Source of the DNA: a virus
Lineage: Duplodnaviria; Caudoviricetes
DNA length: 51,804 nucleotides
IMG/VR virus record: IMGVR_UViG_3300034110_000722
Coordinates: 1-51,804 of that record
Strand: one strand, 5' to 3'
The notes below the pieces were generated by a model. It was given only the letters and a program-made list of their open reading frames with translations, was not told where the DNA came from and searched no databases. A program made the position numbers and the translations under genes. This document shows, one piece after another, positions 418 through 51,804 of the stretch (positions within the stretch are counted from its first letter, which is position 1; every line of letters starts with the position of its first letter).

Positions 418-443
418 TTGCACATATACAAGGGAGTGATTCG

Positions 444-539: not shown

Positions 540-745
540 CCCGTCCCGATGGCTCGCGGGTGCTGCGATATGCACCGGGCGACGGCCATCTGTCCTACAA
601 CGTGGCAGACGAGCGCGGTCGATCGCTGCGCTACGATGTGACACGGCAAGAGGCCGAACAACTCTGCCCTGCTGGGTGGGTCATCTATGGTGATGGACCT
701 TACTGGCGGGCACGTCCCAACACCGACACAACCGGAGCAAACTGA
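527..745 (+). CDS. hypothetical protein
   Basis: GAGGT RBS before ATG 527; TGATG coupling to the next gene. Confidence 0.55.
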   Translation: MRGLTRPDGSRVLRYAPGDGHLSYNVADERGRSLRYDVTRQEAEQLCPAGWVIYGDGPYWRARPNTDTTGAN

Positions 746-4711: not shown

Positions 4712-5112
4712 GCCTTCCTCCCCCACACCGCTTCAACGTCCGCAACCCGCCACCGACGCGGCTGAGTGCCGGGGATCGGCGCGATTGCGAATCGCCCGTC
4801 TTCCAACATGTTGTAGAAGGTTTTTCGGCTGACACCGACCATTTTAGCGACACGACTTGCGTCGCAGGTGCTCGGCTTGCCGTCTCTTTTAACATGTGTC
4901 TTGTTGTAGAGAGGTTTTTCTGATTTTATCGCCAGTCTCTCAGATTCGGCTGCTTGAGACATGGTTTCAAAGTGTTCAATAGTGATTGCTGTAATTCTTC
5001 TGAACCAGTGCGATTCAGATTTGTGCTGCTTCACGCGCGTAAAGGTGCTGGCTGAGATACCAACATAGAGAAGAACACCGTCTCGGTCGTAGTGTCGATA
5101 CAACTCAGCCAT
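4708..5112 (-). CDS. GIY-YIG nuclease fused to AlpA/excisionase-like HTH
   Basis: 'LYRHYD..GVLLYVGIS....RVKQH...E..AI..EKPLYN'; C-terminal 'VAKMVGVSRKTFYNML'. Confidence 0.75.
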   Translation of the reverse strand: MAELYRHYDRDGVLLYVGISASTFTRVKQHKSESHWFRRITAITIEHFETMSQAAESERLAIKSEKPLYNKTHVKRDGKPSTCDASRVAKMVGVSRKTFYNMLEDGRFAIAPIPGTQPRRWRVADVEAVWGRKA

Positions 5113-5296
5113 CACTGCACCCCCCAACAAATGCTTCAACCGCAGCACGGTGCCACACAGGCGGCTCGATCCCGGTGAGCGGCTGCACGGGGCACACGCC
5201 GCGCTTGACCCACTTGCGTAGGGTTTTTCGATCTATCCCTAGTGCTGCGGCGGTCTCAGTGCTATTCAGCAGAGCCTTGGGGCTTGTGTCCGTCAT
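5105..5296 (-). CDS. MerR/excisionase-like HTH DNA-binding protein
   Basis: 'LLNSTETAAALGIDRKTLRKWVKRG'. Confidence 0.7.
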   Translation of the reverse strand: MTDTSPKALLNSTETAAALGIDRKTLRKWVKRGVCPVQPLTGIEPPVWHRAAVEAFVGGCSDG

Positions 5297-8471: not shown

Positions 8472-8693
8472 TTACAGGCTGTCAAGCCACAGGTCAGCAG
8501 GTGCCGCCCTGTAAGGCCCGTCAAGCGCAACAGTGGCGCGGTGTGTCAGTGCGTCAGGGACTGCTTCGTATGACCACCCGCGCCGCCCTTTGCAGGCTGC
8601 GACAGCCTGTTCGCGCCGTACAACCGCTCGCTTGACGCACTGCTGCGCATCTCGGATGATGAACACTGTGCCGCGATCGGCTAGAGGGTGCAT
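8472..8693 (-). CDS. hypothetical protein
   Basis: Fills the gap in the minus-strand operon. Confidence 0.45.
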   Translation of the reverse strand: MHPLADRGTVFIIRDAQQCVKRAVVRREQAVAACKGRRGWSYEAVPDALTHRATVALDGPYRAAPADLWLDSL

Positions 8694-9067
8694 AGCGACC
8701 GCACCTGCGCCGGATCGGTCACGAAGCCCCCGATGCCCCCGACCGATCGGATCAGGTCGATAAAGCGCGCTTGAGCCGCTGCCCGCTGATCGCCGGGGGT
8801 CATGTGCCAGTCGGAATGCTTGCATTCAATCGCTGTGAAGACACCGAGCGTGCGCCCCACATGATGCGGTTGGATCAGGACGGGCATGACTCCGATAAGG
8901 TCGCTGCTGGCGAGCGCCCGGTTCATTTGCTGAGAGTCGTTGCAGAGACCGTATCGAATGATGCGACCCTGCTTGTCCTCACAGGCTCCCACGTTGTTGC
9001 GATAGGCGAGCGCGCCGAGGCGTGCGAGTTCGAGGCGGACGCGCTGCTGTACGGCTGATTCAAGCAT
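8681..9067 (-). CDS. VRR-NUC domain nuclease
   Basis: 'ESAVQ..V...RNNVG...SSDLIG...FTAIECK...Q..F...I...GG'. Confidence 0.85.
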   Translation of the reverse strand: MLESAVQQRVRLELARLGALAYRNNVGACEDKQGRIIRYGLCNDSQQMNRALASSDLIGVMPVLIQPHHVGRTLGVFTAIECKHSDWHMTPGDQRAAAQARFIDLIRSVGGIGGFVTDPAQVRSLCTL

Positions 9068-12080: not shown

Positions 12081-12694
12081 AGCGTGGCACCCCATTGTTC
12101 GGCCATCGCAGCGGCAAAACCGGCATAGAAGCGTGATCGCTCGTGCCCACGGTTCGGCCCAGGCGACATGTAGTGGATGCGCTCCCGTTCACGCTTCGGG
12201 AGTGTCATCATGTGTTCGTACACATTGTTCGTCTCCACCAGTCGCGGTAGGTTCCACAGCGCGAAACCTGTTTTCTTCTGCTCCGGGTGCCCGTGCTGCC
12301 ACGGGTGAATGTACTGCACGTCAGCTTGGTATGCACCACGCAGGACGGGGAATATAACTGACGCGGGGTTTTCGACCGCAACACGATCGCTCTGAGCGCG
12401 TGCAAGCCCTACAGTCTCGCACGTCCAGGCGATTGCCGCCAAACGCTTTCCGTAACCCGAGGATGTGGTTCCGTAGTGCATGTTACCGCAGACGGCCATT
12501 GCAGTGCAGTCAGGGTGCAGAACGATCAAGTCCCACCGCCGCAGCATGATAGCCGCCCGCACATCGCATTGCATGTGCCAAGTCGGATCACCTTCGCACG
12601 GCTTCAGGTCGCACGAGAATGCGTCGTGCCCGCAAGCACGGAACGCATCTCGCACTGTGGCGGAATACTCGCAACCAATCAGAACTGCTGTCAC
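12077..12694 (-). CDS. putative C5-cytosine DNA methyltransferase
   Basis: 'LIGCEYSATVRDAF...GHDAFSCDL', 'WDLIVLHPDCT', 'VENP'. Confidence 0.65.
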   Translation of the reverse strand: MTAVLIGCEYSATVRDAFRACGHDAFSCDLKPCEGDPTWHMQCDVRAAIMLRRWDLIVLHPDCTAMAVCGNMHYGTTSSGYGKRLAAIAWTCETVGLARAQSDRVAVENPASVIFPVLRGAYQADVQYIHPWQHGHPEQKKTGFALWNLPRLVETNNVYEHMMTLPKRERERIHYMSPGPNRGHERSRFYAGFAAAMAEQWGATL

Positions 12695-13119
12695 TTCCGA
12701 CTCACCACCCAAATTTCCCAATACCCGCACGACCCGACGCGCTTGATGCTGGTCGGCACCCATGCCGGATCGTGAACCACTGCGCCGCCTTGGCAGACGA
12801 CCACGTGATCGCCGCCCGCTCTGGTGTCGCTCGTGGTCGAGCCGAACAGCATCCAAGTGGTGTCAGGGTTGTTCGCGCCCATCCAGTCCAGCACGTCTTG
12901 CAGCGGCTGATCGTCCAGCGCAAACGCTGTGATCGTAAGCCCCCGCAAACCCAGCCAACGCCGCGCACTGGCACGTGCTTCTGTGCCGGTTGCGGCAAGG
13001 TCTGCAAAGTGCGGCACGTGCTCAGGGTCGAGATCCATGATCGACGCGATGCAGGCGCGCAGGCAGTCACCGTAGGACTGTGGGGGATCGTGGCGATTGC
13101 GGCACATTACGGGGGTCAC
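12691..13119 (-). CDS. putative C39-like cysteine peptidase
   Basis: 'QSYGDCLRACIASIM' ... 'DHVVV' ... 'VHDP' gives Gln-Cys-His-Asp order. Confidence 0.5.
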   Translation of the reverse strand: MTPVMCRNRHDPPQSYGDCLRACIASIMDLDPEHVPHFADLAATGTEARASARRWLGLRGLTITAFALDDQPLQDVLDWMGANNPDTTWMLFGSTTSDTRAGGDHVVVCQGGAVVHDPAWVPTSIKRVGSCGYWEIWVVSRK

Positions 13120-13721: not shown

Positions 13722-13770
13722 GTGATGGTGGCTCCAGTCGAGATACTTACCGCATTGAAGGTTTTTTCGC

Positions 13771-16580: not shown

Positions 16581-17630
16581 ATGCGAATGACTACCCTAAC
16601 CCCTCTCACCGCCGTTGCCTATAACAACGAAGGCAGCGGTCTGCTCACCCCGACCGGACGCATCGTGTGGGGCCACCCGCTTAAGCCGCGTCAGAAGATC
16701 GACAACGAGACGAAGCAGAAGGTGCTCGACCAGCAGGGTCAGCCGGTCATGGAAACGTCCTACGGGCTGGCGATCCCCATCGCTGAGTTCCAGCAGCACG
16801 TGTGGCCGGTGATGCACGCTGAAGCACTGAAGGGTTATCCCAACGGCGCACCGGGCAACTTCTCGTGGAAGATGACGCAGCCGACCGACATCGACAACAA
16901 GGGTCAGCCCTACAGCATCCGCGAAGGCTATGCCGATCATGTCGTGATTGCTGTTTCGACGCTGCTTGAGCCGCCACCTGCTTTCCGGTGGGACGCTGGC
17001 CGCAACCAGTGGGTGCAGATGCAGCCTGACGAGATCAAGTGCGGCGACTACATCCGCGCTGATCTGAATTTCAAGGTGAACGTCTCGACCAGCGCGACCC
17101 GCAAGCCGTCGCTCTATGTCAACCCGCGCGCGGTGCAGTTCGTCGGCTATGGTGCAGCGATCGTCAGCGCTGGGTATAACGTCGATCCGAGCAGCTTGTT
17201 CGGCGCTGGCCCTGCACCGCTGCCGCCCGGTGCAAGCGCTGTGCCGATCGGCGGTGCGCCTGATGTGGGGATGCCCGGTGCTGCTGCTATGCCCGGTGCT
17301 GCTGCTATGCCCGGTGCTGCTGCTATGCCCGGTGCTGCTGCTATGCCGGGTGCTCCGGTGGCTGCGATGCCGGGTGCTGCTGCGATGCCGAACCCTGCCC
17401 CTGCGGTGTCACCACCTCCCGCGCCTGTGACGGCACCGCCTGCGGCTACTCGACCCACTGACCCGTCGCACATCCACAACAACGGCAACGGCACCGAGCA
17501 GTGGTTCGTGAACGGTGCTTGGGACGGTGGTGCTCACCCTGTCCCGACTGCCGGTGCTGCTCTGCCGCCGCCTGCGACCGGATTTGTCGCACAAGCGGCG
17601 GGTATGCCGGGTGCGATGCCCCCGCGATAA
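16581..17630 (+). CDS. ssDNA-binding protein (DUF2815-like) with LxAxAY leader and Pro/Ala tail
   Basis: 'LLTPTGRIVW', 'IKCGDYIR', 'LYVNPRAVQFVGYG'; lies between exonuclease and polymerase. Confidence 0.7.
   Translation: MRMTTLTPLTAVAYNNEGSGLLTPTGRIVWGHPLKPRQKIDNETKQKVLDQQGQPVMETSYGLAIPIAEFQQHVWPVMHAEALKGYPNGAPGNFSWKMTQPTDIDNKGQPYSIREGYADHVVIAVSTLLEPPPAFRWDAGRNQWVQMQPDEIKCGDYIRADLNFKVNVSTSATRKPSLYVNPRAVQFVGYGAAIVSAGYNVDPSSLFGAGPAPLPPGASAVPIGGAPDVGMPGAAAMPGAAAMPGAAAMPGAAAMPGAPVAAMPGAAAMPNPAPAVSPPPAPVTAPPAATRPTDPSHIHNNGNGTEQWFVNGAWDGGAHPVPTAGAALPPPATGFVAQAAGMPGAMPPR
17271..17390 (+). repeat. 18-bp coding repeat (MPGAAA)n
   Basis: ATGCCCGGTGCTGCTGCT tandem copies plus variants. Confidence 0.9.
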
Positions 17631-34795: not shown

Positions 34796-35326
34796 TCAGA
34801 GACCGCTGACCGGATCGACCTTGATCTGCTTCTGAACCAGACCCAGCGTGAAGATTTCGAGGTCGAAGTCCTCGTTGCGACCGTTCGGCTCGCGCGGGCC
34901 TGCCACCAGACCGCGATTGTAGCGGATGGTCGGCTTGCTGTCGGGGTCGGCGTCAGGCTTGTCCGTGCCCTCGATCTTGAAAGCGTAGTAGAAGTTCGTT
35001 TGAGCAGCAGCGCGCAGAATGTCTTGACCTGCATCGGACGGATCGCGGGCGACTTCGATTTCCGGCGAGCCAGCGTCGGTCAGACCCTTCGCCTTCTGAA
35101 TGACCGCATCATCCCACGTGTCATAGTTCAGAATGTTGGTGTTATCGCCGGTCTCACCGACATTACCGACACCACCGACGAGCACCCAAGTCAGGGCTGC
35201 ATAAGCAGATGCGTTCAGATCAGTTGGTTGCGGGGTGGCGCAGACATACAGTTTGCTGCCAGCGTTGGTGTTGAAATAAGCTGCGGCGACCAGTGCGGTC
35301 GTCTTGGCGAGGACGGTGTTCTTCAT
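34796..35326 (-). CDS. major tail tube protein (with LxAxAY leader)
   Basis: 'TNAGSKLYVC', 'VGNVGETG', 'KAKG..DAG', 'DAGQ..LRAA'. Confidence 0.85.
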   Translation of the reverse strand: MKNTVLAKTTALVAAAYFNTNAGSKLYVCATPQPTDLNASAYAALTWVLVGGVGNVGETGDNTNILNYDTWDDAVIQKAKGLTDAGSPEIEVARDPSDAGQDILRAAAQTNFYYAFKIEGTDKPDADPDSKPTIRYNRGLVAGPREPNGRNEDFDLEIFTLGLVQKQIKVDPVSGL

Positions 35327-35760
35327 GGCTCAAGCCCTTTGCGATACGACTGGTACAAAATCGAAACGGGAAGCAGAACCTCACTGCCCTGCTCGATAAT
35401 ACCCGCTGGATCGGCTGTAGCATACACCTGAACGCCCGACAATAGGCGACCCTTGGTGAAGTAGCGTGTGATCGACTGAAGCAGCAGCGTCGGTGCGTAG
35501 ATACCACCACCATCGTTCGGCCAGTGCAGCACCAGTCTTAGGATACCGCGATGGTTCTTCTCGTCACCGAGGAAGTCACCTGTGCGGTTGTTCGGGAGCC
35601 ACACGATCTCAAGCCACTTCTGGTCGGCAGGTGGCGCAAACGCAGGCCCGCCCGACGTGCCAACCATCAGATACTTGACAGGCAGCGTCGGGCTGTCGCT
35701 CGCCGCAACTGCTGCGGTCACGGCAGTTTGCAGGGCTTCAATGATCGCTGGTTCGCTCAT
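35323..35760 (-). CDS. tail terminator protein
   Basis: Synteny; 'FAPP....WL', 'GIL...L.WP..GG', 'PVSI.Y'. Confidence 0.7.
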   Translation of the reverse strand: MSEPAIIEALQTAVTAAVAASDSPTLPVKYLMVGTSGGPAFAPPADQKWLEIVWLPNNRTGDFLGDEKNHRGILRLVLHWPNDGGGIYAPTLLLQSITRYFTKGRLLSGVQVYATADPAGIIEQGSEVLLPVSILYQSYRKGLEP

Positions 35761-36197
35761 CCTACGTCGTCGCTCACTTTCTTGCTCGCCAGATCGACAT
35801 ACTTTTGCCAGTTTTGCACGGGTATGTCCACGAAACCATCGTAGGTGTTTCGAGCCGCCGCATACGCAGCAGTCCAACCGAAGAAAAACGTGTCACCGAG
35901 TTTCAGGTCCATGATGACAGCAGCGAGTGGATAACCGTCGAAGTCATCGTAGATGCCTGTGTATTGCCCGACTGGCGCATCTGTTGGGCGCTGACTTTCA
36001 CCGGACGGCATTGATCCGATTGCGCCGCGACCTGAAGCCCTGAGAAAGCCTGTATCGACGCGCATCCGCCCACCCTTTGCTGTCGGGGTTTGCATGTCGT
36101 TCACCATGTCGAGAGCGGCAGTCTGGACAACTGCGAGCATTCGCTGCTCGGTCTCTTTGACCCAAGCGTTCATCGTGGCGCTGAAACTCTGGGTCAT
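35757..36197 (-). CDS. neck / tail-completion protein (HK97 gp10-like)
   Basis: 'RVDTGFLRAS', 'WTAAYA', 'GFV....QNW'. Confidence 0.8.
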   Translation of the reverse strand: MTQSFSATMNAWVKETEQRMLAVVQTAALDMVNDMQTPTAKGGRMRVDTGFLRASGRGAIGSMPSGESQRPTDAPVGQYTGIYDDFDGYPLAAVIMDLKLGDTFFFGWTAAYAAARNTYDGFVDIPVQNWQKYVDLASKKVSDDVG

Positions 36198-37216
36198 GTC
36201 ACACCCACCCCAAACCGAATCTCATAACGAATCCTGCACCTGCAACCGATGATTTCGCGCGCAGGTGCATCAAGCGACACGTCATGCGGGTGCATCAGCC
36301 GCGCACCCGTTACAGGTGACACGAACGGCTCATCCATTCCGACCGACACCCCGTCCAGAGCGCGATGACTGTCGCGCACCCTGCCATCCCCGGCGCTGTC
36401 CCACACCTTGCGGATGGCGCTCAGTGGCCGACCATTGCGCAGAGCCGCCTGCTTCACTGCTTCATATTCGCCACGGTTCAGTGCGGACAGTGCTTCGGTG
36501 CGTCCGATCTGCTCACCGCGATGCTTCAGCGCGTTGTCCTTGTAGAGACCGATCAGTTTGTCCACTGTGTCCCCGGACAGCGGACGGCCTGTGCGGATTG
36601 CCTCTTTCACCACATCGTCAAACCGGCTCGCTCGCAGCCCCATGTCGAAATACGATTCATCAAGCGTCAGCAGTTTCTGCCGTGCGCTCTCGACCCAGTT
36701 CAACTGCTGTGCGGTCAGCCCGATGCTGCCACCCTCGCGCCGTCCTGTTTGCCGGTTCACCCGCCCCACGAGATCCAATGCGACATTGCGTGGATTGCGA
36801 CCCTCACGCATCCCACGTTGCAATGCGTCACGGACGGACTGGCGAACGTCTTCCTCGATCTCGGTAATGAGACCGCTGGAACGCTGACCCAGCCATTGCT
36901 CTGCCGCACGGTCGCGGATGTCGAAACGAATCACTGTCTTTACTCCGTCGGCACCCGTAACATACTTTGGCAAACCTGCGATTAACGCAAGCCCGCCAGC
37001 CTCAAATGTCTGAGCGAGTGCGAAGTAGAAACCGTTGAACAGGGCGGGATTGAGACCGAGCGCACGTAGCACACCTGCTTCGTCACCGAGTTCAATCATG
37101 CGGATCACTTCGACAAGCAACGCCTCATCGCGCAACCGGCGAATACCGTCGAGTATCGCATCGCGCAACGCAGGCTCAAAACGAGCGAGTAGTTCGGTGA
37201 GTTGCTTCTCGGTCAT
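36194..37216 (-). CDS. head morphogenesis protein (Mu gpF/SPP1 gp7-like)
   Basis: 'IGRTE', 'KVWDSAGDGRVRDSH..LDG', 'IGCRC'. Confidence 0.85.
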   Translation of the reverse strand: MTEKQLTELLARFEPALRDAILDGIRRLRDEALLVEVIRMIELGDEAGVLRALGLNPALFNGFYFALAQTFEAGGLALIAGLPKYVTGADGVKTVIRFDIRDRAAEQWLGQRSSGLITEIEEDVRQSVRDALQRGMREGRNPRNVALDLVGRVNRQTGRREGGSIGLTAQQLNWVESARQKLLTLDESYFDMGLRASRFDDVVKEAIRTGRPLSGDTVDKLIGLYKDNALKHRGEQIGRTEALSALNRGEYEAVKQAALRNGRPLSAIRKVWDSAGDGRVRDSHRALDGVSVGMDEPFVSPVTGARLMHPHDVSLDAPAREIIGCRCRIRYEIRFGVGVT

Positions 37217-37581
37217 CAGCGCCGCACAATCACAGTCCAAGACACCGAATCACCCGCAGCAGGGCGCGGCATCACCACGTTGATCTTGTGATCCACACCG
37301 TCGATGCGAATGAAGTGACCTAACACCGGAGTGGGTGATACACCGTCGTTCGGAATGCTCAACTGCTTGTCCGTGCGAACGACACTGGTGCCATCGACAT
37401 ATTTCGTGCTGACGGGACGTGCCGTCGAATTGATCGTGACAGGCGTGCCTTTGACGGGTGCAGCAGGTGCATCAGGGCGTGAACCAGCGGGTACAGTGAG
37501 CGGCACGTAGCGCACGTCACCTTGCTTGAACTCAGCGTGCAGTTCGGACGACACCTGACGAAGATCATCGTAAATCGACAT
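37216..37581 (-). CDS. head closure protein
   Basis: Synteny; 'KYVDGT.V..TD', 'IDG'. Confidence 0.7.
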   Translation of the reverse strand: MSIYDDLRQVSSELHAEFKQGDVRYVPLTVPAGSRPDAPAAPVKGTPVTINSTARPVSTKYVDGTSVVRTDKQLSIPNDGVSPTPVLGHFIRIDGVDHKINVVMPRPAAGDSVSWTVIVRR

Positions 37582-37641
37582 TTAAACTTGACCACCCTGT
37601 AAGTTATGCTAACAACGCTGCGTCAACACAGGAGACACACA

Positions 37642-38019
37642 GTGACCACAACCAAGAAAGCCGCTGCACCCGCAGCGACCACCGCCAAGGTTGAACCGAT
37701 CGTTGCAACGGGCGATCTCGACATCACCCTGCCGCCCAAGCCGACGCGCGCTGGCAACGGCAAGGGCAAGTATCCCTTCGACACCCTCGAAGTCGGCAAG
37801 TTCTTCAGCGTGAAGAACAAGACGCGCCGTGACCTCTACACCGCAGTCAACAACGCGAACAAGCGCTACCGCAAGGAACTTCCGGCAACCCCCGGCAATC
37901 CGCCGCAGGTGATTGTTGAGCGCGAGTTCTACGCGGTCGATGTGGATGCTGCAACGGCTGAAGCGCTCAAGGGATCGGCGCATGAAGGCGCGACCGTCCT
38001 GATCATTCGCAGCAAGTAG
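37642..38019 (+). CDS. hypothetical DNA-binding protein on the opposite strand
   Basis: AGGAG RBS; 'KYPFDTLEVGKFFSV'; followed by its own terminator. Confidence 0.75.
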   Translation: MTTTKKAAAPAATTAKVEPIVATGDLDITLPPKPTRAGNGKGKYPFDTLEVGKFFSVKNKTRRDLYTAVNNANKRYRKELPATPGNPPQVIVEREFYAVDVDAATAEALKGSAHEGATVLIIRSK

Positions 38020-38047
38020 CCCCCCTCCCACTGCTTGCTGTGGATAG

Positions 38048-38085
38048 CCCCCGCGCTCGCTTCGGCTGATGCGCGGGGGTTTTTT
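38048..38085 (+). terminator. intrinsic terminator
   Basis: CCCCCGCGC...GCGCGGGGG followed by a T-run. Confidence 0.8.
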
Positions 38086-38582
38086 CATGCGCGCACCACA
38101 CCGCTGCTGATTGAGGACACACCGCCGTTGCCTTCAAGCAGTGGTGCGAGGATCTGACCGATGACCGGAAACTGCACCTGCACCTGCTCGGCACTCAGAG
38201 ACAGGTATTCGGCGCTCACCGACCCTTCGATGCTGACGCGCTTGTAGCGGTTGGGGGTGTAATCGGACTGAAGCACTGTCTCGTCCTGCAAGTGTCGCAG
38301 GGCTGCTTCGTATGTGGCGTTCTCGATCTCGGTCGGGACGGTGGTTGCATCGACCGGATAACCTTCACGATCCTGCACCCAGCTGCGCGGCCAGTCGCGG
38401 GTCTGCTGCTGCCGGTTCCCGACCTTGTAGCCAGGCCAGCGATAACCGAACGCACCGTCGAGCCATTCGGACGCGACGAGCAGCGCCACAGTCACGTCAT
38501 CGGTGTGATGCTGCGTCGTGTGGCGACCACGAGCAAGGTGATACGCTTGGAAGCCTGCTGCGGTGCCGTAGAAGTCGCTCAT
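38085..38582 (-). CDS. head-tail adaptor (DnaT-like)
   Basis: 'YH.ARG', 'ALL.AS.WLD', 'WPR', 'VP.EI..A..EAA'. Confidence 0.8.
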   Translation of the reverse strand: MSDFYGTAAGFQAYHLARGRHTTQHHTDDVTVALLVASEWLDGAFGYRWPGYKVGNRQQQTRDWPRSWVQDREGYPVDATTVPTEIENATYEAALRHLQDETVLQSDYTPNRYKRVSIEGSVSAEYLSLSAEQVQVQFPVIGQILAPLLEGNGGVSSISSGVVRA

Positions 38583-38633
38583 GTCACTCTCACGCTGAAG
38601 GGCGGCAGTTGCCCACCGCCCTCATATCATGCG

Positions 38634-38990
38634 TCAGCCCTGCGGCGCAATGGCAGCGAGAGCAGCGGTCGCTTCGGCTTCGGTGCCGTAGCCAGTGTCA
38701 GCGATGCCGAGTGCCGCAGCCGCTTCACCTTCGACCTTCTGACCCATCAGGTCAGCGATGAAGAACTTGCGGCCCTGCTTCATCACGATCAGTTGCGCGG
38801 GCTGCTGCGGTTCGGTGGTGACAGTGGGTTCGAGCACAGTTTCATCGGTGCTCGGCTCGTCAGCCAGTTCCATCGTTTCAGGGTCGAAATCCGACTCGTT
38901 GATGCGGACATGCGTGCCGTCACGGACGATGGTGACGGTTGGCAGAATGCCGTGCGAATATGCGACAGCGATCAAGGGAATGAGTTTCAT
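38634..38990 (-). CDS. small head-associated protein (with LxAxAY leader)
   Basis: Directly after the capsid gene; 'LPTVTI...INESDFDP'; GAGG RBS. Confidence 0.7.
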   Translation of the reverse strand: MKLIPLIAVAYSHGILPTVTIVRDGTHVRINESDFDPETMELADEPSTDETVLEPTVTTEPQQPAQLIVMKQGRKFFIADLMGQKVEGEAAAALGIADTGYGTEAEATAALAAIAPQG

Positions 38991-39032
38991 GTCAGGTTCC
39001 TCGTTGAATGAGATGTAAACCTTACCACAATG

Positions 39033-39069
39033 AAAACGGCCCCGCCACCCGTAAGTAGCGAGGCCGTCT
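39033..39069 (-). terminator. intrinsic terminator after the capsid gene
   Basis: ACGGCCTCGC...GCGGGGCCGT followed by TTT on the minus strand. Confidence 0.7.
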
Positions 39070-39086
39070 CTCGGTGCAACCCGGAT

Positions 39087-40328
39087 TTAGCCGAGCAGGA
39101 GCGAAATATGCTCCGTTTTCGATGCGTGAGTCCCCCACGCCAGACCGATCTCACCGTACATCATACGATAGCCGGGATACACAGCGAACTCGAAGGTGAG
39201 GCCGCTGCGCGGATCAGTCACGGTCGTCACGTCGATCGCCAGATCACCCTGAACCGGGCGAGCAGGCGGGCGGGCGGCGAGGTGCAGCGCATCCATCGAG
39301 AAGCCGACACCAGCGACATTGTAGCTGGCCGTGCGGGTGATCGCAGTCGTCGAAGCGGGGATCGCCTGACGAAGACCCGGAGCAGCGAGGACGATGGTGC
39401 CTCCACCCGACACGTCCGCGTCACCCGACACGAGCAGGTAACGATTGGCATCACCAGCGAACGACACCACGTCACCAGCGACGAACGTGCCGGTGCCTGC
39501 CGAAGCGAGCGTGATGGTGGTCGCGCCGACAGCGTAGCCGGCGTTGTTCGTGGTTGCGCTGGTTGCGGTGCCTGCGGTGTGCGAGCGAGCCTGACCGGTT
39601 TCCTTGACCGAGAAGCCGAAGATGTCGAGCAGTTCGCCCTGACGCAGCGTCATCTGATCGCCAGCTTCGTTCACGCGGGTCAGGTTCTTCACCGAACGCA
39701 GGTTCGCACCGGCGCTGGTGTTGAGGACCATCGAACGACCGGTCATCGGCGCACCGTTGTCGTCAAGGATCTTGCGAACCTGAGCGACATCGTTGAGGTG
39801 ATCGACACTGGTGCCAAACGGGGTGGTGCCAGCGGTGCCCCATGCACGCGATGCAGCGATGCGAGCAGTGGTCGCCAGATCACCTTCGACCTCGTTGGTG
39901 AGGGTGCGAAGCGCCTGAGCGATGATCATCGCCTGAGCCGACTGGTAGTTCGGGCCAGAACCAGCATTCAGAGCGCGCTGTTCTTCACCGACGAAGTTGA
40001 ACTTCGCAGCACGTGCCTTGGTGATGGTCATGGTGCCGGTGTCGAACACGTTGTCGTTGTTCGAGGGCGGGGTCATCGCGGGAACGATGTCGCTCGCGGT
40101 CTGCGGCGGTGCGATCGGATAGGTGACGGTCTGGCCGACAGCAGCAGCTTCGACACCAGGCGCACGCATCACGGACGGAATATAACCGACGAGTTCGCGC
40201 GACACCACGTCCATTGCGGTGTAGATGTCACCGAGGATTTCGGTCAGTGTGTTGGCGTATGCGTAGGCGGACAGGTTGCCGATCATCGGCGCAGTGCGCG
40301 CACGCAGAATGTTCTTCATGTTGGACAT
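39087..40328 (-). CDS. major capsid protein (P22-coat-like, with LxAxAY leader)
   Basis: 'ANTLT...DVVSRELVGYIP', 'TDPRSGLTFE', 'AWG'; follows the scaffold gene; GAGG RBS before ATG 40328. Confidence 0.9.
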   Translation of the reverse strand: MSNMKNILRARTAPMIGNLSAYAYANTLTEILGDIYTAMDVVSRELVGYIPSVMRAPGVEAAAVGQTVTYPIAPPQTASDIVPAMTPPSNNDNVFDTGTMTITKARAAKFNFVGEEQRALNAGSGPNYQSAQAMIIAQALRTLTNEVEGDLATTARIAASRAWGTAGTTPFGTSVDHLNDVAQVRKILDDNGAPMTGRSMVLNTSAGANLRSVKNLTRVNEAGDQMTLRQGELLDIFGFSVKETGQARSHTAGTATSATTNNAGYAVGATTITLASAGTGTFVAGDVVSFAGDANRYLLVSGDADVSGGGTIVLAAPGLRQAIPASTTAITRTASYNVAGVGFSMDALHLAARPPARPVQGDLAIDVTTVTDPRSGLTFEFAVYPGYRMMYGEIGLAWGTHASKTEHISLLLG

Positions 40329-40362
40329 GACGAGCCTCATGGTTGGAGATTTGGGGTTTTCG

Positions 40363-40414
40363 GCCCGTTCATCTCGAACTGCGGCTCAGTGCCCGATCAT
40401 CACGATCTGCGGCT
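40363..40414 (-). promoter_or_regulatory. tandem hairpin pair in the capsid 5' UTR
   Basis: AGCCGCAGATCGTGATGATCGGGC and AGCCGCAGTTCGAGATGAACGGGC. Confidence 0.65.
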
Positions 40415-40422
40415 GAGTGTGA

Positions 40423-40451
40423 GTGATATGCTATGTTGCGGCGGGTGTCAA
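40423..40451 (-). promoter_or_regulatory. sigma70-like capsid promoter
   Basis: TTGACA-17 nt-TATCAC on the minus strand. Confidence 0.65.
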
Positions 40452-40476
40452 ACCGGTAACACCCGCCGCACGCAAA

Positions 40477-41289
40477 TTAGTCAACGACCTTCAGTTCACC
40501 CTTGGCGACCTTCTGACCGATGCTCGCCTTTTCCATCGGCCCCAGCTTGTCATAGTCGGCGCGCTTCATCACGTTGCCGCCGCCACGATTGCCACCTGCG
40601 CCGCCCGAACCGCTGCCGCTTGCGGTGGGTGCGCGCAGCAGTTGATCCTTGTCCTGGCGCTCGCTGATGAACATCTCAAATGCTTCATCGACCGAAGCGA
40701 TCTCGCCGCGCGAGTTGTAGATCACATCACCGTTCGGACGCACCGGCACAAGCTGACCGTCTTCGATCTTGAAGCGATCGCTGTATGCAGCAGTGACGAA
40801 ATCCTGCGGCACAGCCAGTCGCTCACTGAGGAACTTGCTGCTGGTGAACGCATTCTTGCGTAGCAGGTTGTCGCGGTCGCGCTCGATCTGCGTCAGCTTC
40901 TCGTCGCGTTCCTTCAGTTGCGTTTCATACTGCGAGGTGATCGACTGCTTGATCTTGTCGATTTCACCCTTCTCGACCATCTTACTCAGGTCGAGATCCT
41001 TGGTCTTCTCGATTGCATCACGCGCTGCATCAGGGTCGAGATCACCGAACTTGGCGAGTTTGTCCTGTGCTTCCTTGGCAGCGCGCCGATGTGCGGCACT
41101 CTCGCTGTTGATGCGCTGGATGTAACCACCCGCGATTGCGGTTTCCTTGCCGCTGTCGTCGAGCATGATCGGGTTACCGGATGCGTCAGTGACGAGGTTG
41201 CCGCTGTCGTCGGTCTTCCAGCCTGCCTTGTTGTCGTAGGCGAGCGCGGTGAGTGCCGTGGTGAGGCTCAGGACGGTGAGACGCTTCAT
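40477..41289 (-). CDS. scaffolding protein (with LxAxAY leader)
   Basis: Coiled coil, 'SGSGSGG', position between portal and capsid; GAGG RBS. Confidence 0.8.
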   Translation of the reverse strand: MKRLTVLSLTTALTALAYDNKAGWKTDDSGNLVTDASGNPIMLDDSGKETAIAGGYIQRINSESAAHRRAAKEAQDKLAKFGDLDPDAARDAIEKTKDLDLSKMVEKGEIDKIKQSITSQYETQLKERDEKLTQIERDRDNLLRKNAFTSSKFLSERLAVPQDFVTAAYSDRFKIEDGQLVPVRPNGDVIYNSRGEIASVDEAFEMFISERQDKDQLLRAPTASGSGSGGAGGNRGGGNVMKRADYDKLGPMEKASIGQKVAKGELKVVD

Positions 41290-41357
41290 GGTGTTTCCTC
41301 TGGTTGGTTCTGAGCGATACTTACCGCATGGATAGCATGGGTGCAAGCCCTGTCGGA

Positions 41358-42875
41358 CTATGCCAACGGCTCCACGTCCTCACCCGTCCCCGGCGTATCA
41401 GCCAGCAGCCGGATGCGCTCACGCTCCATCGTGAAGTTGCTGGACAGGATGCCGCGCCGCTTCAGTTCCTCGCAATACGTCTCGTGGCTGATGTCGCCGC
41501 GAGTGCGGGCACTGTCCAGTGCGCCGAGGTCTTCGCCTTCCATCCAGTCGTCGAACTCTGCAAAGACGTGAACGGTCGGGTCATAGTCGATACCCATCCA
41601 CTTTGAGGTCAGCAGCAGCGCGTTCTCAAGCGCGTTGGACAGCATCAGCGCCCACGCCTTCACCGCGCTCTTGGCCTTCCCAGCTGCGACTGCTGCTGTG
41701 ATGACCGTGATGTTGCTGCTTGACGCGGTGAGCGGCTGACGGCCCAACTCGCGCAACCGGCGCTCGGTTGCTTCAATGCGCGCTTCGAGGAACTTGAGCG
41801 ACTCCGAACCAGGCTCGACATATGCCCAATTCCCCGCAGGTCCACCATCGTCGCGCGGCGGCGACCACAGCACGCGGTTCGGGCCGACAGCGATCTTGGT
41901 CTGCGGCTTCCCGTCGCGTCCGTTCGGCGGCTTGATCCCGTTCGCAGCGAGCATCGGGTATGCAGTCAACTGGCTCGCGTGCTCAAGCCCTGTCTCCTGC
42001 CGGAACATTTGGATCTGCAACTCGACGGCAGCACGCATGGGCGGCACGAAGCGCCACTGACGGCCCTCGCGCCGCCCCGTGACGAACGGAACAAGCGGAA
42101 TCTCACCGATGCTGATCTCACCACTGTCGAGCAGGAAGTATTCCTTCTGCTTCGTGGTGTCGTTGACAGCTTTCTGCCAGAGTTGCCATGTGACACCGAG
42201 ATCAGTCCGCTCAAAGATGCGGACATGATCGGGATCACCCGGCTCGAAAATCTTGATGTAGGTCAGCACTTCGTCGCTGCCGATCATTTTGCTGCGCACG
42301 TCAAGGACGTTGCGAGCCAGAATGTGCGTCCAGTACGGGCGCAGACCCTGAGCGCGTGCTTCAGCGATGGTCAGTGGTCGATCCGCTTCGACCTTGCTGT
42401 AATCGACCATGATCCAGTCGATTGCGTGATTGATCCCGTTGAAGAACACCTGCGATGCGAAGACGGTCAGGTTGCTACCCGACCCATCCACATTGTAGCA
42501 GAAATCCTCAATCTCGTCGGGGATACCGTCATCTTCGGTGTCTTCGGTTGCGTCGGTCTGATCGCTGACGAGTTGAACAGGCTGCTCGAACGGCTTGCCT
42601 GCAAGCGATTCCGCAATGTCCGAATACACGTTCGTCATCACCGCACAGGACGAGCGAAATTTGTAGTCTTCTGCTTCCTCGTCACGGAACTTCGGCAGGA
42701 ACTCGTCGAAGTGCATTTTCATGCCTTCGATGCCGTCGAGCACCGCATCCACCTTTTCGTGGTATCGGAACATGAACGCGCTGTCGGTCGAGCGCTTCTC
42801 CATCACATCGACAGCAACGCCGCCGCTGGGTGGTGCGGACGCATAGGCTGCGGCGGTGAGCGGACGGAGTTTCAT
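41358..42875 (-). CDS. portal protein (DUF4055-like, with LxAxAY leader)
   Basis: 'FLPKF..E...DY..R', 'IMVDY', 'RPYW', 'IPLVPF', 'PPM'; follows TerL. Confidence 0.85.
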   Translation of the reverse strand: MKLRPLTAAAYASAPPSGGVAVDVMEKRSTDSAFMFRYHEKVDAVLDGIEGMKMHFDEFLPKFRDEEAEDYKFRSSCAVMTNVYSDIAESLAGKPFEQPVQLVSDQTDATEDTEDDGIPDEIEDFCYNVDGSGSNLTVFASQVFFNGINHAIDWIMVDYSKVEADRPLTIAEARAQGLRPYWTHILARNVLDVRSKMIGSDEVLTYIKIFEPGDPDHVRIFERTDLGVTWQLWQKAVNDTTKQKEYFLLDSGEISIGEIPLVPFVTGRREGRQWRFVPPMRAAVELQIQMFRQETGLEHASQLTAYPMLAANGIKPPNGRDGKPQTKIAVGPNRVLWSPPRDDGGPAGNWAYVEPGSESLKFLEARIEATERRLRELGRQPLTASSSNITVITAAVAAGKAKSAVKAWALMLSNALENALLLTSKWMGIDYDPTVHVFAEFDDWMEGEDLGALDSARTRGDISHETYCEELKRRGILSSNFTMERERIRLLADTPGTGEDVEPLA

Positions 42876-46390: not shown

Positions 46391-47103
46391 AGTGTCACCA
46401 CAGGTGCTTCAGCGATTAGACGAAGCAGTGTGTCGCGCTGTCTCAGTCGAGCATGAGCAGCAGCAGCATAAGCAGCACGAGCAGCAGTGTCAGCAGCACG
46501 AGCAGCATAAGCAGCAGCGCGAGCAGCAGCATCAGCAGCGCGAGCAGCAACATAAGCAGCAGCGCGAGCAGCAACATAAGCAGCAGCGCGAGCAGCAGCA
46601 TGAGCAGCAGCGCGAGCATCAGCATCAGCAGCGCGAGCAGCAGCATCAGCAGCGCGAGCAGCAGCGCGAGCAGCAGCGCGAGCAGCAGCAGCAGCGCGCG
46701 ACCATTCACCGCCTGCTGCGAGTTTGTCCATGCCAGCGATCACAGCGTCGATCTCGGGCATCTGCACGGGCAAGGCGCGCAACTCGCTCGCCAGAAAAGC
46801 CCAGTGTACCCGCGACAGATCCTTGCCGTCACAGCCGATCGCAGCAGGCAAACCAGCAAAGAAATGCTTGGCTTCAGCGGGCGGAAGTGCCTCAAAAATC
46901 CCTTCAGCGATCCGAAGCAAGGGTAGTGTCAGACCGAACTGCTCGATTGCCACCGTGGGGTCGCTGCTGTGGGACAGGCAACCGATGAAGCACCCGCGCC
47001 CGTTGTCCCAGTAGGTGCCCTGCACAACCTGATCGGCTGCAACGTGTGCTGCGACCTGAGCGGTGAGGACGTCGAAATTCTTGGTGAGTATGCTGGTGGT
47101 CAT
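46387..47103 (-). CDS. hypothetical protein with Ala-rich repeat
   Basis: AGGAG RBS; 'QGTYW..GRGCFIGC'; (AARAA)n encoded at ~46450-46700. Confidence 0.75.
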   Translation of the reverse strand: MTTSILTKNFDVLTAQVAAHVAADQVVQGTYWDNGRGCFIGCLSHSSDPTVAIEQFGLTLPLLRIAEGIFEALPPAEAKHFFAGLPAAIGCDGKDLSRVHWAFLASELRALPVQMPEIDAVIAGMDKLAAGGEWSRAAAAARAAARAAARAADAAARAADADARAAAHAAARAAAYVAARAAAYVAARAADAAARAAAYAARAADTAARAAYAAAAHARLRQRDTLLRLIAEAPVVTL

Positions 47104-47743: not shown

Positions 47744-47962
47744 GCTGCTCGATCTGCTCAGGCTGCTCGATCTGCTCAGGCTGCTCGATCTGCTCAGGCT
47801 GCTCGATCTGCTCAGGCTGCTCGATCTGCTCGATCTGCTCAGGCTGCTCGATCTGCTCAGGCTGCTCGATCTGCTCAGGCTGCTCGATCTGCTCAGGCTG
47901 CTCGATCTGCTCAGGCTGCTCGATCTGCTCAGGCTGCTCGATCTGCTCAGGCTGCTCGATCT
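47744..47962. repeat. 18-bp tandem repeat (~12 copies, one with a 9-bp slip)
   Basis: GCTGCTCGATCTGCTCAG repeated in non-coding DNA. Confidence 0.97.
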
Positions 47963-48059: not shown

Positions 48060-48351
48060 ATTGCTGCAAAATGCGGGATGCGGGAAGGTTGCGGCGATTG
48101 CTTTGCAAATCGCGTTGTCACAATTCACCTGACCCCAACTTTGTATGAGTTTAGGACGTATTCTGATAGTATACATTATTATATATTATTCATAAAGTGG
48201 GGAGTCAGGTATATTGAAAAGGTGTTAGATTCGCAATAACAGCGCTGCAATATGGTTCGATTGCAGTAAACCATAAACCTTGCGACGATTGCGACATACT
48301 TTTGTTCTATCAATCGCCGCAACCTTCCCGCATCCCGCATTTTGCAGCAAT
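48060..48351. repeat. 41-bp perfect inverted repeat enclosing an AT-rich core
   Basis: 48060-48100 ATTGCTGCAAAATGCGGGATGCGGGAAGGTTGCGGCGATTG is the reverse complement of 48311-48351. Confidence 0.95.
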
Positions 48352-51661: not shown

Positions 51662-51804
51662 CAGGTCCGCTCAGGTCCGGCTGTAGCCGCGCATCCCGCT
51701 CAGGGCCGCTCAGGTCCGGCTGTAGCCGCGCATCCCGCTCAGGTCCGCTCAGGTCCGGCTGTAGCCGCGCATCCCGCTCAGGTCCGCTCAGGTCCGGCTG
51801 TAGC
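51662..51804. repeat. 39-bp tandem repeat array, continues at position 1
   Basis: Same unit as 1-138, with one single-base variant. Confidence 0.97.

What the first reader, a model, noticed from the sequence alone, without database searches (positions are those of the whole stretch)
35276..42875. Six unrelated proteins share an N-terminal leader ending in L-x-A-x-A-Y: candidate leader-processing system
Seen in sequence: portal MKLRP-LTAAAY-ASAPP (42843-42875); scaffold MKRLTVLSLTTA-LTALAY-DNKAG (41236-41289); major capsid MSNMKNILRARTAPMIGN-LSAYAY-ANTLT (40257-40328); small head protein MKLIP-LIAVAY-SHGIL (38958-38990); tail tube MKNTVLAKTTA-LVAAAY-FNTNAG (35276-35326); SSB MRMTTLTP-LTAVAY-NNEGS (16581-16622). 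All are 11-24 aa leaders with an early basic residue and invariant L, A, A, Y. Codons differ (CTC/CTG/TTG, TAT/TAC), so the constraint is on the peptide and not the DNA. From my recollection of the family, capsids of this type usually start at about MANTLT, exactly after the Tyr. Established analogy: S. aureus phage 80alpha capsid and scaffold carry an L27-like leader removed by the host cysteine protease Prp, but that motif is different. Inference: a shared cleavable propeptide or docking tag that licenses assembly, targets proteins or masks them from host sensors. No prohead protease is visible in the head module.
Basis: partly seen in the sequence, partly recalled or inferred. Interest (0 to 1): 0.92.

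Follow-up and report, generated by a model that had tools for sequence, protein, structure and literature searches.

The report
Shared clip-off leader on phage proteins
Six unrelated proteins of this phage, and their counterparts in a whole family of related phages, start with the same kind of short add-on peptide that is probably cut off, possibly by the phage's own small protease, which would be a way of handling head, tail and replication proteins together that has not been described for tailed phages.

Summary
L-x-A-x-A-Y occurs 8 times in all six frames of the window, and 6 of these lie at the stated N-termini, against about 0.06 expected.

The leaders are translated extensions. They hold the only in-frame start before conserved residues. 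Leaderless capsid and tail-tube homologues begin with Met at the place of the Tyr.

The leaders vary far more than the protein body, except at P6, P4, P2 and P1. They recur in 13 related genomes, including Rhizobium phages P106B and RHph_X2_24, and in all of the 120 best metagenomic tube homologues that could be read (113 of 120). The general form is a basic start, almost no acidic residues, and an end of L-x-A-x-[AG]-[YF].

Best reading: a removable propeptide. Cleavage itself is not shown.

A candidate enzyme is a phage-encoded 142-aa Cys-His-Asp papain-like protein at 12691-13119. Its nearest solved fold is a C39 leader-peptidase domain. It occurs in every near-complete leader-bearing genome examined. 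It is absent from 13 phages whose tube lacks a recognisable leader, but it also occurs in some leaderless phages.

Prp was not found. Six literature searches found no description.

The parts
42843..42875 (-). Portal leader, 11 codons, first part of the portal gene 41358-42875 (Pfam DUF4055).
   Evidence: Relatives keep the end motif while the rest of the leader differs. There is no Shine-Dalgarno-like run upstream. An in-frame ATG 24 codons downstream cannot be excluded as a second start for this gene alone.
41236..41289 (-). Scaffold-like protein leader, 18 codons, gene 40477-41289 (Pfam DUF6651).
   Evidence: GAGG lies 8-11 nt before the ATG. A leader ending in [AGV]-[YF] is present in 12 of 12 family genomes that have the gene. 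The homologues in Caulobacter phage DMCA and Microcystis phage Me-ZS1 are leaderless.
40257..40328 (-). Major capsid protein leader, 24 codons, gene 39087-40328 (P22-coat-like, PF11651).
   Evidence: Leaderless homologues start with Met at the place of the Tyr. A leader is present in 12 of 12 family genomes that have the gene.
38958..38990 (-). Small head-module protein leader, 11 codons, gene 38634-38990. Function unknown.
   Evidence: The leader occurs only in the window's close relatives (L002-L006, G001). The orthologues in P106B, X2_24 and G166 are leaderless; G160 probably is too, but its ORF shows no start codon at the head of the printed stretch.
35276..35326 (-). Tail tube protein leader, 17 codons, gene 34796-35326 (weak PF08813 match).
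   Evidence: A leader is present in 12 of 13 family genomes. About half of 59 IMG/VR homologues are leaderless and start with Met at the junction. In the AlphaFold model the leader and junction have pLDDT below 50, while most of the body is at 73-93 apart from a weak loop at 62-72.
16581..16622 (+). Gp2.5-like ssDNA-binding/annealing protein leader, 14 codons, gene 16581-17630.
   Evidence: GGAG lies 10-13 nt before the ATG. A leader is present in only 3 of 13 family genomes (window, G001, G163). The other 10 start a few residues before the conserved core.
12691..13119 (-). Candidate leader peptidase, 142 aa, a stand-alone papain-like Cys-His-Asp protein (PHROG 5845, function unknown).
   Evidence: C19, H105 and P118 are invariant and D117 is nearly invariant. 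Model pLDDT is 93.6. The top PDB fold match is the chain of PCAT1, a peptidase-containing ABC transporter (probability 0.98, E 0.017). The link to the leaders is inferred from co-occurrence only.
13743..13754 (-). 12-nt promoter-like word upstream of the operon 13721 to 12691 that ends with the candidate peptidase. The same word stands upstream of the scaffold gene (41317-41328) and the small head gene (39018-39029).
   Evidence: There are 6 matches against 0.65 expected. Its function was not tested, and it is only a hint of shared regulation.

Best explanation
The six N-terminal stretches are translated propeptides. Each is a short module with a basic start, an uncharged, Ala/Leu/Thr-rich middle and an end of L-x-A-x-[AG]-[YF]. 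A lineage of P106B-like siphophages has added this module in front of several unrelated proteins: always the scaffold and capsid, usually the tube and portal, and sometimes the SSB, a small head protein and a DUF7303 protein.

The most likely course is this. The precursor is made, and an endopeptidase recognises the last six or so residues of the leader. It cuts at the junction: after the aromatic residue, or one bond to either side. This leaves the N-terminus that leaderless homologues have after Met removal.

The most likely enzyme is the phage's own 142-aa papain-like cysteine peptidase (12691-13119). It is encoded in the replication module, so it could be present before both the SSB and the late proteins are made.

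Shown: the leaders exist, are translated, are lineage-specific additions, are constrained at the junction, and co-occur with the peptidase gene.

Inferred: that cleavage happens, where it happens, which enzyme does it, and what the cell or phage gains. Possible gains are holding self-assembling proteins inactive until cut, or tying essential proteins to the phage's own enzyme.
For: 1. Enrichment is far beyond chance: 6 observed against 0.06 expected, with a maximum of 2 in 5000 shuffles.

2. The leaders are translated. No other in-frame start precedes residues conserved in homologues. GAGG or GGAG stands 8-13 nt before the ATG of the scaffold, capsid, small head and SSB genes.

3. The leaders are additions. 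Capsid homologues align from residue 25/26 in 22 of 30 listed phage records, and from residues 23-27 in 30 of 32 bacterial loci. Leaderless capsid and tube proteins begin with Met at the place of the aromatic residue. Leaderless SSB, small-head, scaffold and portal homologues start within a few residues of the junction.

4. The conservation pattern is that of a processing site.
- In 39 distinct leaders, P1 is Y 31 / F 8, P2 is A 33 / G 6, P4 is A in 30 and P6 is L in 31. One acidic residue occurs in 564 positions.
- In 88 distinct tube leaders, P1 is F 45 / Y 34 / H 4 and P2 is G 46 / A 39.
- Column entropy is 2.26 bits in the leader against 0.80 in the body.
- Lengths run from 11 to 26 residues.

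5. The module has been gained or lost on different proteins in different genomes. This fits a portable tag that is not part of the fold. AlphaFold gives pLDDT below 50 for the tube leader.

6. The candidate enzyme.
- C19, H105 and P118 are invariant, and D117 is nearly invariant, in 30 aligned family members.
- The model is confident.
- The best PDB match is the C39-bearing transporter PCAT1, followed by other papain-like enzymes.
- An ESM Atlas neighbour cluster has PF03412 on 11% of its members.
- A Yersinia phage homologue is annotated as a C39 family peptidase.
- It is the only peptidase-like protein found besides the CHAP endolysin.

7. Co-occurrence.
- All 6 leader-bearing genomes that are at least 87% complete and were found without using the peptidase carry it: window, G001, P106B, X2_24, G163 and G170.
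- None of 13 records whose tube protein lacks a recognisable leader carries it. Eight of those are at least 90% complete.
- None of the leaderless Rhizobium phages X3_2 and TM3_3_9 is among the 17 records that hold a homologue.

8. The same 12-nt upstream word precedes the peptidase operon, the scaffold gene and the small head gene.
Against: No data here show cleavage.

The peptidase family also occurs in phages whose structural proteins have no such leader:
- Xanthomonas phage Mallos, the uncultured siphovirus MW202621 and Microcystis phage Me-ZS1.
- G172, where none of the family's structural proteins was found and a loose motif scan gave only two doubtful hits.
- Fold relatives in very different phages: Sansa, phiRSL1, CcrColossus and a mycobacteriophage. 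Their N-termini were not read.

The enzyme therefore has, or also has, some other job.

The co-occurrence follows phylogeny. The leader-bearing phages are one family with one type of replication module, and the leaderless comparators are mostly proviruses. The association may be inheritance rather than function. Nine of the 13 family genomes were found through the peptidase itself.

The fold match to C39 is weak by E-value (0.017; no PDB match at 0.001 or better). None of the 30 family members matches Pfam PF03412. The junction is not Gly-Gly.

Leaderless homologues work without any leader, so the benefit of having one is unexplained.
Confidence: 0.42

Rival explanations
1. The leaders are removable propeptides, but a host cytoplasmic endopeptidase cuts them. 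The phage would mimic the N-terminus of a host protein, as staphylococcal phage 80alpha mimics the L27 extension cut by Prp. The phage papain-like protein would then do something else.
For: The precedent exists. Prp and 80alpha appear in passages of PMC9405229 and in the abstract listing of PMC5744158. Both motifs end in an aromatic residue before a small or polar one. The phage peptidase family also occurs in leaderless phages, so it need not be the leader enzyme. The two cultured leader-bearing phages both infect Rhizobiaceae.
Against: Prp (PF04327) was found in 0 of 151 genomes sampled from the order of a Hyphomicrobiales MAG, while the control genomes matched. The motif differs from the L27 motif. 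No host protein with such a leader is known to me, and none was searched for. Other Rhizobium phages with homologous tube proteins have no leader, so the host does not impose one.
Confidence: 0.2
2. The leaders are not cut. They stay on the proteins as a functional tag. Possible roles are a site for a chaperone or an assembly or replication compartment, a membrane anchor, or a 5' coding element that raises expression.
For: Nothing here proves cleavage. The leaders resemble hydrophobic binding peptides: a basic start and an uncharged core. Most begin Met-Lys or Met-Arg. The tagged set includes abundant or self-assembling proteins.
Against: The strongest constraint is on the last two residues, exactly at the border with the homologous part. 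The length and the remaining sequence drift freely. This is what a cutting site looks like, and a binding helix would not be expected to look so. The module sits on seven different folds and comes and goes between close relatives. A hydrophobic tail of 11-26 residues kept on a capsid N-arm, a tube protein and an SSB would have to be harmless in all of them. An expression element would not need an invariant small-aromatic pair at its end.
Confidence: 0.28
3. The leaders are true Sec signal peptides cut by host signal peptidase I, and the proteins pass through or act at the membrane.
For: The leaders have a positive start, an uncharged core, and small residues at the third-last and last positions before the aromatic residue (A in 30 of 39 at P4, A or G in 39 of 39 at P2). 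Read one bond earlier, that is the small-x-small rule as I recall it. Some family members have 22-26-residue leaders that look like textbook signal peptides.
Against: The window's portal, small-head and SSB leaders are 11-14 residues with a core of 5-8 residues. That is too short for export, by the usual lengths as I recall them. Val stands at the would-be -1 position in 3 leaders (G165 capsid, G171 capsid and scaffold). Capsid, portal, scaffold, tube and a DNA-binding protein must act in the cytoplasm, where the DNA and ATP are. No signal-peptide predictor was at hand.
Confidence: 0.04
4. The finding is chance, or an artefact of wrongly chosen start codons in an Ala-rich, high-GC genome.
For: The genome is about 59% G+C, and Ala and Leu are common. 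The portal has no ribosome-binding site before the leader ATG and has a later in-frame ATG.
Against: Shuffles that keep N-terminal composition give 0.066 cases against 6 observed. The motif is kept in orthologues at 50-90% identity whose leaders otherwise differ. Conserved mature residues lie upstream of any other start.
Confidence: 0.01

Closest known systems
Host Prp cleavage of the L27-like leaders on capsid and scaffold proteins of Staphylococcus phage 80alpha
   Same: A short N-terminal leader is shared by unrelated phage proteins. The head module has no prohead protease. The leader ends in an aromatic residue and a cysteine protease is involved. (Motif and distribution are from passages of PMC9405229; the 80alpha facts are from the abstract listing of PMC5744158 and from recall.)
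   Different: The motif is different. The host group is different, with no Prp found in 151 sampled genomes of the likely host order. There are six to seven substrate families, including a tail protein and a replication protein, instead of two head proteins. The candidate enzyme is phage-encoded and of another fold family.
C39 peptidase domains of bacteriocin/peptide exporters (PCAT1) that remove double-glycine leaders
   Same: This is the nearest solved fold to the candidate enzyme. Both have a Cys-His-Asp arrangement with similar spacing (the PCAT1 residue numbers are recalled). The job of C39 domains is to remove a 15-30-residue N-terminal leader at a small-residue motif.
   Different: There is no sequence-level match: 0 of 30 family members hit PF03412. 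The phage protein is a stand-alone 142-aa ORF and is not fused to a transporter. The junction is [AG]-[YF] and not Gly-Gly. The substrates are large cytoplasmic proteins rather than exported peptides.
Consensus-site processing of many virion precursors by one viral protease (T4 gp21, phiKZ gp175, adenovirus adenain, poxvirus I7L; all recalled)
   Same: One short motif is shared by many otherwise unrelated viral proteins. In adenovirus and poxvirus the enzyme is a viral cysteine protease and DNA-associated proteins are among the substrates.
   Different: In tailed phages the known cases act inside the prohead, on head proteins only, by serine proteases encoded in the head module. Here the motif is also on a tail tube and an SSB protein, the leader is strictly N-terminal, and the candidate gene lies in the replication module.
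Sec signal peptides and signal peptidase I
   Same: A basic start, an uncharged core and small residues near the end.
   Different: Many of these leaders are too short. There is a constant aromatic residue at the junction, Val stands at the critical position in three cases, and the substrates are cytoplasmic.

Membership tests
Prp / long-L27 leader system (80alpha type) | A Prp cysteine protease (Pfam PF04327) in host or phage | tested here: not met
   0 of 151 genomes sampled from the order of G006 matched, while the controls Bacillus, Thermotoga and Lactococcus did. No such match among 40 window proteins. The window's own host is unknown.
Prp / long-L27 leader system (80alpha type) | The leader carries the L27 motif ending ...LQ(F/L)F before A(S/H)KK | tested here: not met
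   The motif here is L-x-A-x-[AG]-[YF] followed by variable residues. The L27 motif is as quoted in PMC9405229.
Prp / long-L27 leader system (80alpha type) | The leader is removed from the capsid and scaffold proteins | not testable with these tools
   Leaders are present on both proteins, but cleavage needs protein chemistry.
C39 leader peptidase with double-glycine leader | Papain-like fold with a Cys-His-Asp triad | tested here: met
   C19, H105 and P118 are invariant and D117 is nearly invariant. Model pLDDT is 93.6. Top PDB hit is PCAT1 at probability 0.98, E 0.017, TM 0.52, followed by other papain-like enzymes. The geometry of the triad in the model was not inspected.
C39 leader peptidase with double-glycine leader | Sequence match to Pfam PF03412 (Peptidase_C39) | tested here: not met
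   0 of 30 family members matched at E up to 1. No PDB sequence match. The only leads are an Atlas neighbour cluster with PF03412 on 11% of members and one depositor's annotation.
C39 leader peptidase with double-glycine leader | Gly-Gly (or Gly-Ala/Ser) at the last two leader positions | tested here: not met
   The last two positions are [AG]-[YF].
C39 leader peptidase with double-glycine leader | Peptidase fused to, or beside, an ABC exporter | tested here: not met
   In the window it is a 142-codon ORF between replication genes. Only homologues of 78-249 residues were searched, so fused forms elsewhere were not looked for.
Sec signal peptide / signal peptidase I | Basic start, hydrophobic core of sufficient length, small residues at -3 and -1 | tested here: inconclusive
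   The charge and small-residue pattern fit in most leaders. The window's 11-14-residue leaders are short, and Val stands at -1 in 3 leaders. No predictor was available.
Sec signal peptide / signal peptidase I | The substrate is exported | not testable with these tools
   By inference it is not: capsid, portal, scaffold, tube and SSB act in the cytoplasm.
Prohead-protease maturation (HK97 gp4, T4 gp21, phiKZ gp175 types) | A protease gene in the head module | tested here: not met
   Head-module proteins match portal, DUF6651, P22-coat, Mu F, adaptor and head-closure families only.
Prohead-protease maturation (HK97 gp4, T4 gp21, phiKZ gp175 types) | Substrates are head proteins | tested here: not met
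   The tail tube protein and a Gp2.5-like SSB also carry the leader.

The most novel reading that the evidence does not exclude
A family of tailed phages makes its key self-assembling and DNA-binding proteins as leader-tagged precursors. These include the scaffold, capsid, portal, tail tube and, in some members, the SSB. The phage activates all of them with its own small C39-like leader peptidase. This would be a genome-wide pro-protein system borrowed from the logic of bacteriocin and RiPP leaders. It could time assembly, or it could lock essential proteins to the phage's own enzyme, so that recombinants or cheaters without the enzyme fail.
Probability: 0.3. Interest if true: 0.85.

Novelty: new variant of a known kind. 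Interest (0 to 1): 0.72.

Why it matters
Proteolytic maturation in tailed phages is known as a head-only event run by a prohead protease, with the staphylococcal Prp case as the one host-run exception. Here a single portable leader marks head, tail and replication proteins across an abundant family of environmental phages: 727 tube homologues at E up to 1e-5, and every one of the best 120 that could be read (113) is leader-bearing. Two cultured Rhizobium phages belong to this family.

If the leader is cut, this defines a new recognition motif. It would probably also give the first function for a widespread, uncharacterised family of small phage cysteine peptidases, and it would raise the question of why a phage makes its proteins wait for a cut.

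The finding also matters for annotation. These leaders look like signal peptides and could cause capsid and tail proteins to be called secreted.

The question is directly testable, because P106B and RHph_X2_24 are in culture.

Tried and rejected
1. Near-identity DNA search of the head region against the phage collection: no match.

2. Literature. The six searches were: P106B; Prp/L27/phage; N-terminal leader/host protease; C39/propeptide/tail tube; signal peptide/capsid/scaffold/tube; Rigallicvirus. They gave only the Prp and 80alpha papers and nothing on this motif. The P106B genome paper is not held, and I do not know whether it reports virion protein termini. Supplements were not consulted.

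3. Complex prediction of the peptidase with the first 45 residues of the tube protein: no verdict, score under the mark and controls not run. It counts neither for nor against.

4. Sequence searches of the peptidase against PDB chains and Pfam: nothing. BFVD gave only uncharacterised phage proteins.

5. The idea that the peptidase marks leader-bearing phages only: rejected. Mallos, MW202621 and Me-ZS1 carry it without leaders, and so, less surely, does G172.

6. Peptidase search in five fragmentary relatives: nothing matched, but all are under 60% complete, so the result is uninformative.

7. The VRR-NUC-like seventh N-terminal match: rejected as chance.

8. A DNA-level repeat as the cause of the motif: rejected, because synonymous codons vary.

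9. Cluster look-up for source names of NCBI-held homologues: no names, so no host clue.

10. No tRNA genes in the window.

12. Not done: a scan of a host proteome for the motif (no host genome can be laid in the script box, and the motif would hit true signal peptides); a signal-peptide predictor; inspection of model coordinates; a phylogenetically corrected co-occurrence test.

Full report
**What the window is.** The window is a complete IMG/VR virus record of 51,804 bases with direct terminal repeats, at about 59% G+C.

Its gene content is that of a siphophage:
- Structural genes: small and large terminase, portal (DUF4055), a DUF6651 scaffold-like protein, a P22-coat-like capsid protein, head-tail adaptor, head closure protein, Mu F-like protein, tail terminator, tail tube, assembly chaperone, tape measure and distal tail proteins.
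- Lysis: a CHAP endolysin.
- Replication module: primase, helicase, two exonucleases, a Gp2.5-like SSB, MazG and a DNA polymerase.

The polymerase did not match Pfam; I name it by similarity to the annotated polymerases of P106B and RHph_X2_24.

The closest cultured relatives are Rhizobium phage vB_RglS_P106B and RHph_X2_24 (genus Rigallicvirus). They are syntenic, with 40-60% protein identity.

- The strict pattern L.A.AY occurs only eight times in roughly 100,000 six-frame codons. Six of these lie 5-22 residues after the ATG of the six named genes.
- Of the other two, one is internal to the tube protein. The other lies in a VRR-NUC-like protein whose relatives read other residues there and have no extension, so it is chance.
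- In a rough list of 71 ORFs, six carry the pattern in their first 45 residues. Five thousand shuffles gave a mean of 0.056 (whole protein) or 0.066 (N-terminal residues only), and never more than two.
- A looser pattern found no further N-terminal case in the window.
- The codons for the shared residues differ between genes, so the constraint is on the peptide.

**Are the leaders translated?** For five genes there is no other ATG, GTG or TTG between the leader and residues that are conserved in homologues. GAGG or GGAG lies 8-13 nt before the leader ATG of the scaffold, capsid, small-head and SSB genes, and a weaker AAGGG lies before the tube gene. The portal has no such run and has a later in-frame ATG, so for the portal alone a second start cannot be excluded. 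Its leader is nevertheless conserved in relatives whose sequence otherwise differs.

**Are the leaders additions?** Yes, in every family.
- Capsid: 22 of the 30 listed phage records align from residue 25 or 26. Only P106B (two records), RHph_X2_24, DMCA and one bat-associated siphovirus align earlier. DMCA has a stop codon there and is leaderless. Of 32 loci in bacterial genomes, 30 align from residues 23-27 and two are partial. Leaderless capsids start with Met at the place of the Tyr.
- Tube: all 33 phage records listed align from residue 18-25. Among 59 IMG/VR loci, a script classed 25 as leader-bearing, 27 as leaderless and 7 as unclear, with a few misparsed either way. The leaderless ones begin with Met directly before the same conserved residues.
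- SSB, small head protein, scaffold and portal: leaderless orthologues start within a few residues of the junction.

**How far does it reach?** I compared thirteen related genomes: the window, G001, G160-G163, G165-G167, G171, G174, P106B and RHph_X2_24. They share terminase, portal, scaffold, capsid, tube, SSB, Mu F and adaptor genes.

| Protein | Leader found in |
|---|---|
| Scaffold | 12 of 12 genomes with the gene |
| Capsid | 12 of 12 genomes with the gene |
| Tube | 12 of 13 |
| Portal | 9 clearly; 2 clearly leaderless; 2 unclear |
| SSB | 3 of 13 |
| Small head protein | only the window's close relatives |
| DUF7303 protein | P106B, RHph_X2_24, G167 and G163, but not the window |

- In 39 distinct leaders, P1 is Y 31 / F 8, P2 is A 33 / G 6, P4 is A in 30 and P6 is L in 31. 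There is one acidic residue among 564 positions.
- In the 13-genome comparison, three leaders have Val at P2 and two end in His.
- In the large protein collection the tube protein has 727 homologues at E up to 1e-5. Of the best 120, 98 could be parsed, giving 88 distinct leaders. P1 is F 45, Y 34, H 4 and other 5; P2 is G 46, A 39 and P 2. Lengths are mostly 15-19 residues. The 15 unparsed sequences that were printed also show a leader.
- Column entropy in a 66-sequence alignment is 2.26 bits over the leader and 0.80 over the body. The low-entropy positions are at the fourth-last, second-last and last leader residues and at an Ala further upstream.

**What it most likely is.** Four features together describe a processing signal:
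- a portable N-terminal module on seven different folds;
- free to vary in length and sequence, but fixed at its last residues;
- placed exactly where leaderless relatives begin;
- gained and lost on individual genes between close relatives.

If leaderless proteins lose their Met before Ala, as is usual (recalled), a cut after the aromatic residue would give the same mature end in both forms. The bond could still lie one residue to either side. Papain-like enzymes often read a bulky residue at P2 (recalled). In a few tube proteins the aromatic residue appears to be the first residue of the conserved part.

AlphaFold, run with 66 sequences, folds most of the tube body at pLDDT 73-93, apart from a weak loop at residues 62-72. 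It leaves the leader and junction below 50. That fits a detachable piece but is weak evidence.

**Which enzyme?** Prp is unlikely. Its family was found in none of 151 genomes sampled from the order of a Hyphomicrobiales MAG, while the control genomes matched. The L27 motif is also different.

Among 40 window proteins, the only peptidase-like match in Pfam is the CHAP endolysin. However, the 142-residue ORF at 12691-13119 (PHROG 5845, function unknown) has these properties:
- 107 homologues;
- Cys19, His105 and Pro118 invariant and Asp117 nearly invariant among 30 aligned members;
- a confident model, pLDDT 93.6;
- as best solved-structure match, the peptidase-bearing transporter PCAT1 (probability 0.98, E 0.017, TM 0.52), followed by other papain-like enzymes such as a Josephin-type clippase, staphopain, Tae4-type amidases, IdeS-type proteases and AvrPphB.

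A neighbouring Atlas cluster carries Peptidase_C39 on 11% of its members. One depositor calls a homologue a C39 peptidase. At sequence level there is no match to Pfam or the PDB. I therefore call it papain-like and C39-like in fold, not a member of C39.

C39 domains remove N-terminal leaders from peptides. This is what makes the protein an attractive candidate.

**Does it go with the leaders?** Partly.

For the link:
- Every leader-bearing genome that is at least 87% complete and was found without reference to the peptidase has it: the window, G001, P106B, RHph_X2_24, G163 and G170, so 6 of 6.
- None of 13 viral records whose tube protein lacks a recognisable leader has it. Eight of these are at least 90% complete and most are proviruses. 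The two positive controls matched in the same search.
- The leaderless Rhizobium phages X3_2 and TM3_3_9 are not among the 17 phage records with a homologue.
- A 12-nt word (6 matches against 0.65 expected) stands 22-30 nt upstream of the start of the scaffold gene, the small head gene and the operon that ends with the peptidase.

Against the link:
- The leader-bearing phages are one family, so this co-occurrence may be shared descent.
- Nine of the thirteen family genomes were found through the peptidase.
- The family also occurs without leaders in Mallos, MW202621 and Me-ZS1. Less surely it does so in G172, where none of the family's structural proteins was found and a loose scan gave only two doubtful hits.
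- Fold relatives sit in quite different phages, whose N-termini I did not read.

The pattern is "needed but not sufficient" at best. One leader-bearing fragment (66% complete) showed no peptidase, which says nothing.

**Rivals.**
- A host endopeptidase remains possible.
- An uncut tag (chaperone, compartment or membrane site, or expression aid) is not excluded. It fits poorly with a constraint that is concentrated at the very junction.
- The leaders resemble Sec signal peptides, and some family members look like textbook ones. However, the window's shortest leaders are 11-14 residues, Val occupies the critical position in three cases, and the substrates are cytoplasmic.
- Chance and mis-annotation are excluded.

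**Comparison with what is known.** The system works like the 80alpha/Prp case and like consensus-site processing by T4 gp21, phiKZ gp175, adenain or poxvirus I7L (recalled). It is not a member of any of these. The motif, the candidate enzyme, the position of its gene and the range of substrates (head, tail and replication proteins) all differ. Six literature searches found no description.

I rate it a new variant of a known kind.

Noticed in passing
window 13743-13754(-), 39018-39029(-), 41317-41328(-), 407-418(+), 48079-48090(+), 48321-48332(-): A 12-nt word, TGYGGTAAGKWT, occurs 6 times against 0.65 expected. Four copies lie 22-30 nt upstream of an ATG with a ribosome-binding site: the scaffold gene, the small head gene, the operon holding the candidate peptidase, and a small ORF near 444. 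It may be a phage-specific promoter or processing site. The upstream regions of the scaffold and small-head genes in relatives appear to keep it (read from translations).
   Followed up: partly
window 37606-38019(+): A DUF7303 protein is encoded on the opposite strand inside the head module. Its counterparts in P106B, RHph_X2_24, G167 and G163 carry the same kind of leader, but the window's copy does not.
   Followed up: partly
window 46450-46695, 47744-47962, 51662-51804: Three tandem-repeat arrays near the right end: period 21 x 10.7, period 18 x 12.7 and period 39 x 3.7. The first underlies a long Ser-rich ORF that is probably not a gene.
   Followed up: no
window 8681-9067(-): A VRR-NUC-like protein matches L.A.AY near its N-terminus by chance. 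Twelve relatives read other residues at that place.
   Followed up: yes
window 4708-5148(-) and 745-1257(+): A GIY-YIG plus HTH protein, and a protein with a weak I-HmuI NUMOD-like match. These are possible homing endonucleases.
   Followed up: no
L058 (Xanthomonas phage Mallos) 6690-7361: In Mallos the homologue of the candidate peptidase lies directly upstream of the portal gene, in the head module, although the structural proteins of that phage show no such leader.
   Followed up: partly
G174 (L125-L128), tube gene near 51383(-): One family member has a leaderless tube protein that starts with Met at the junction, while its scaffold, capsid and portal keep leaders. This looks like a natural loss of the leader on one gene.
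   Followed up: partly
window 444-539(+): A small ORF of about 31 codons with a hydrophobic stretch, preceded by the promoter-like word and a ribosome-binding site.
   Followed up: no
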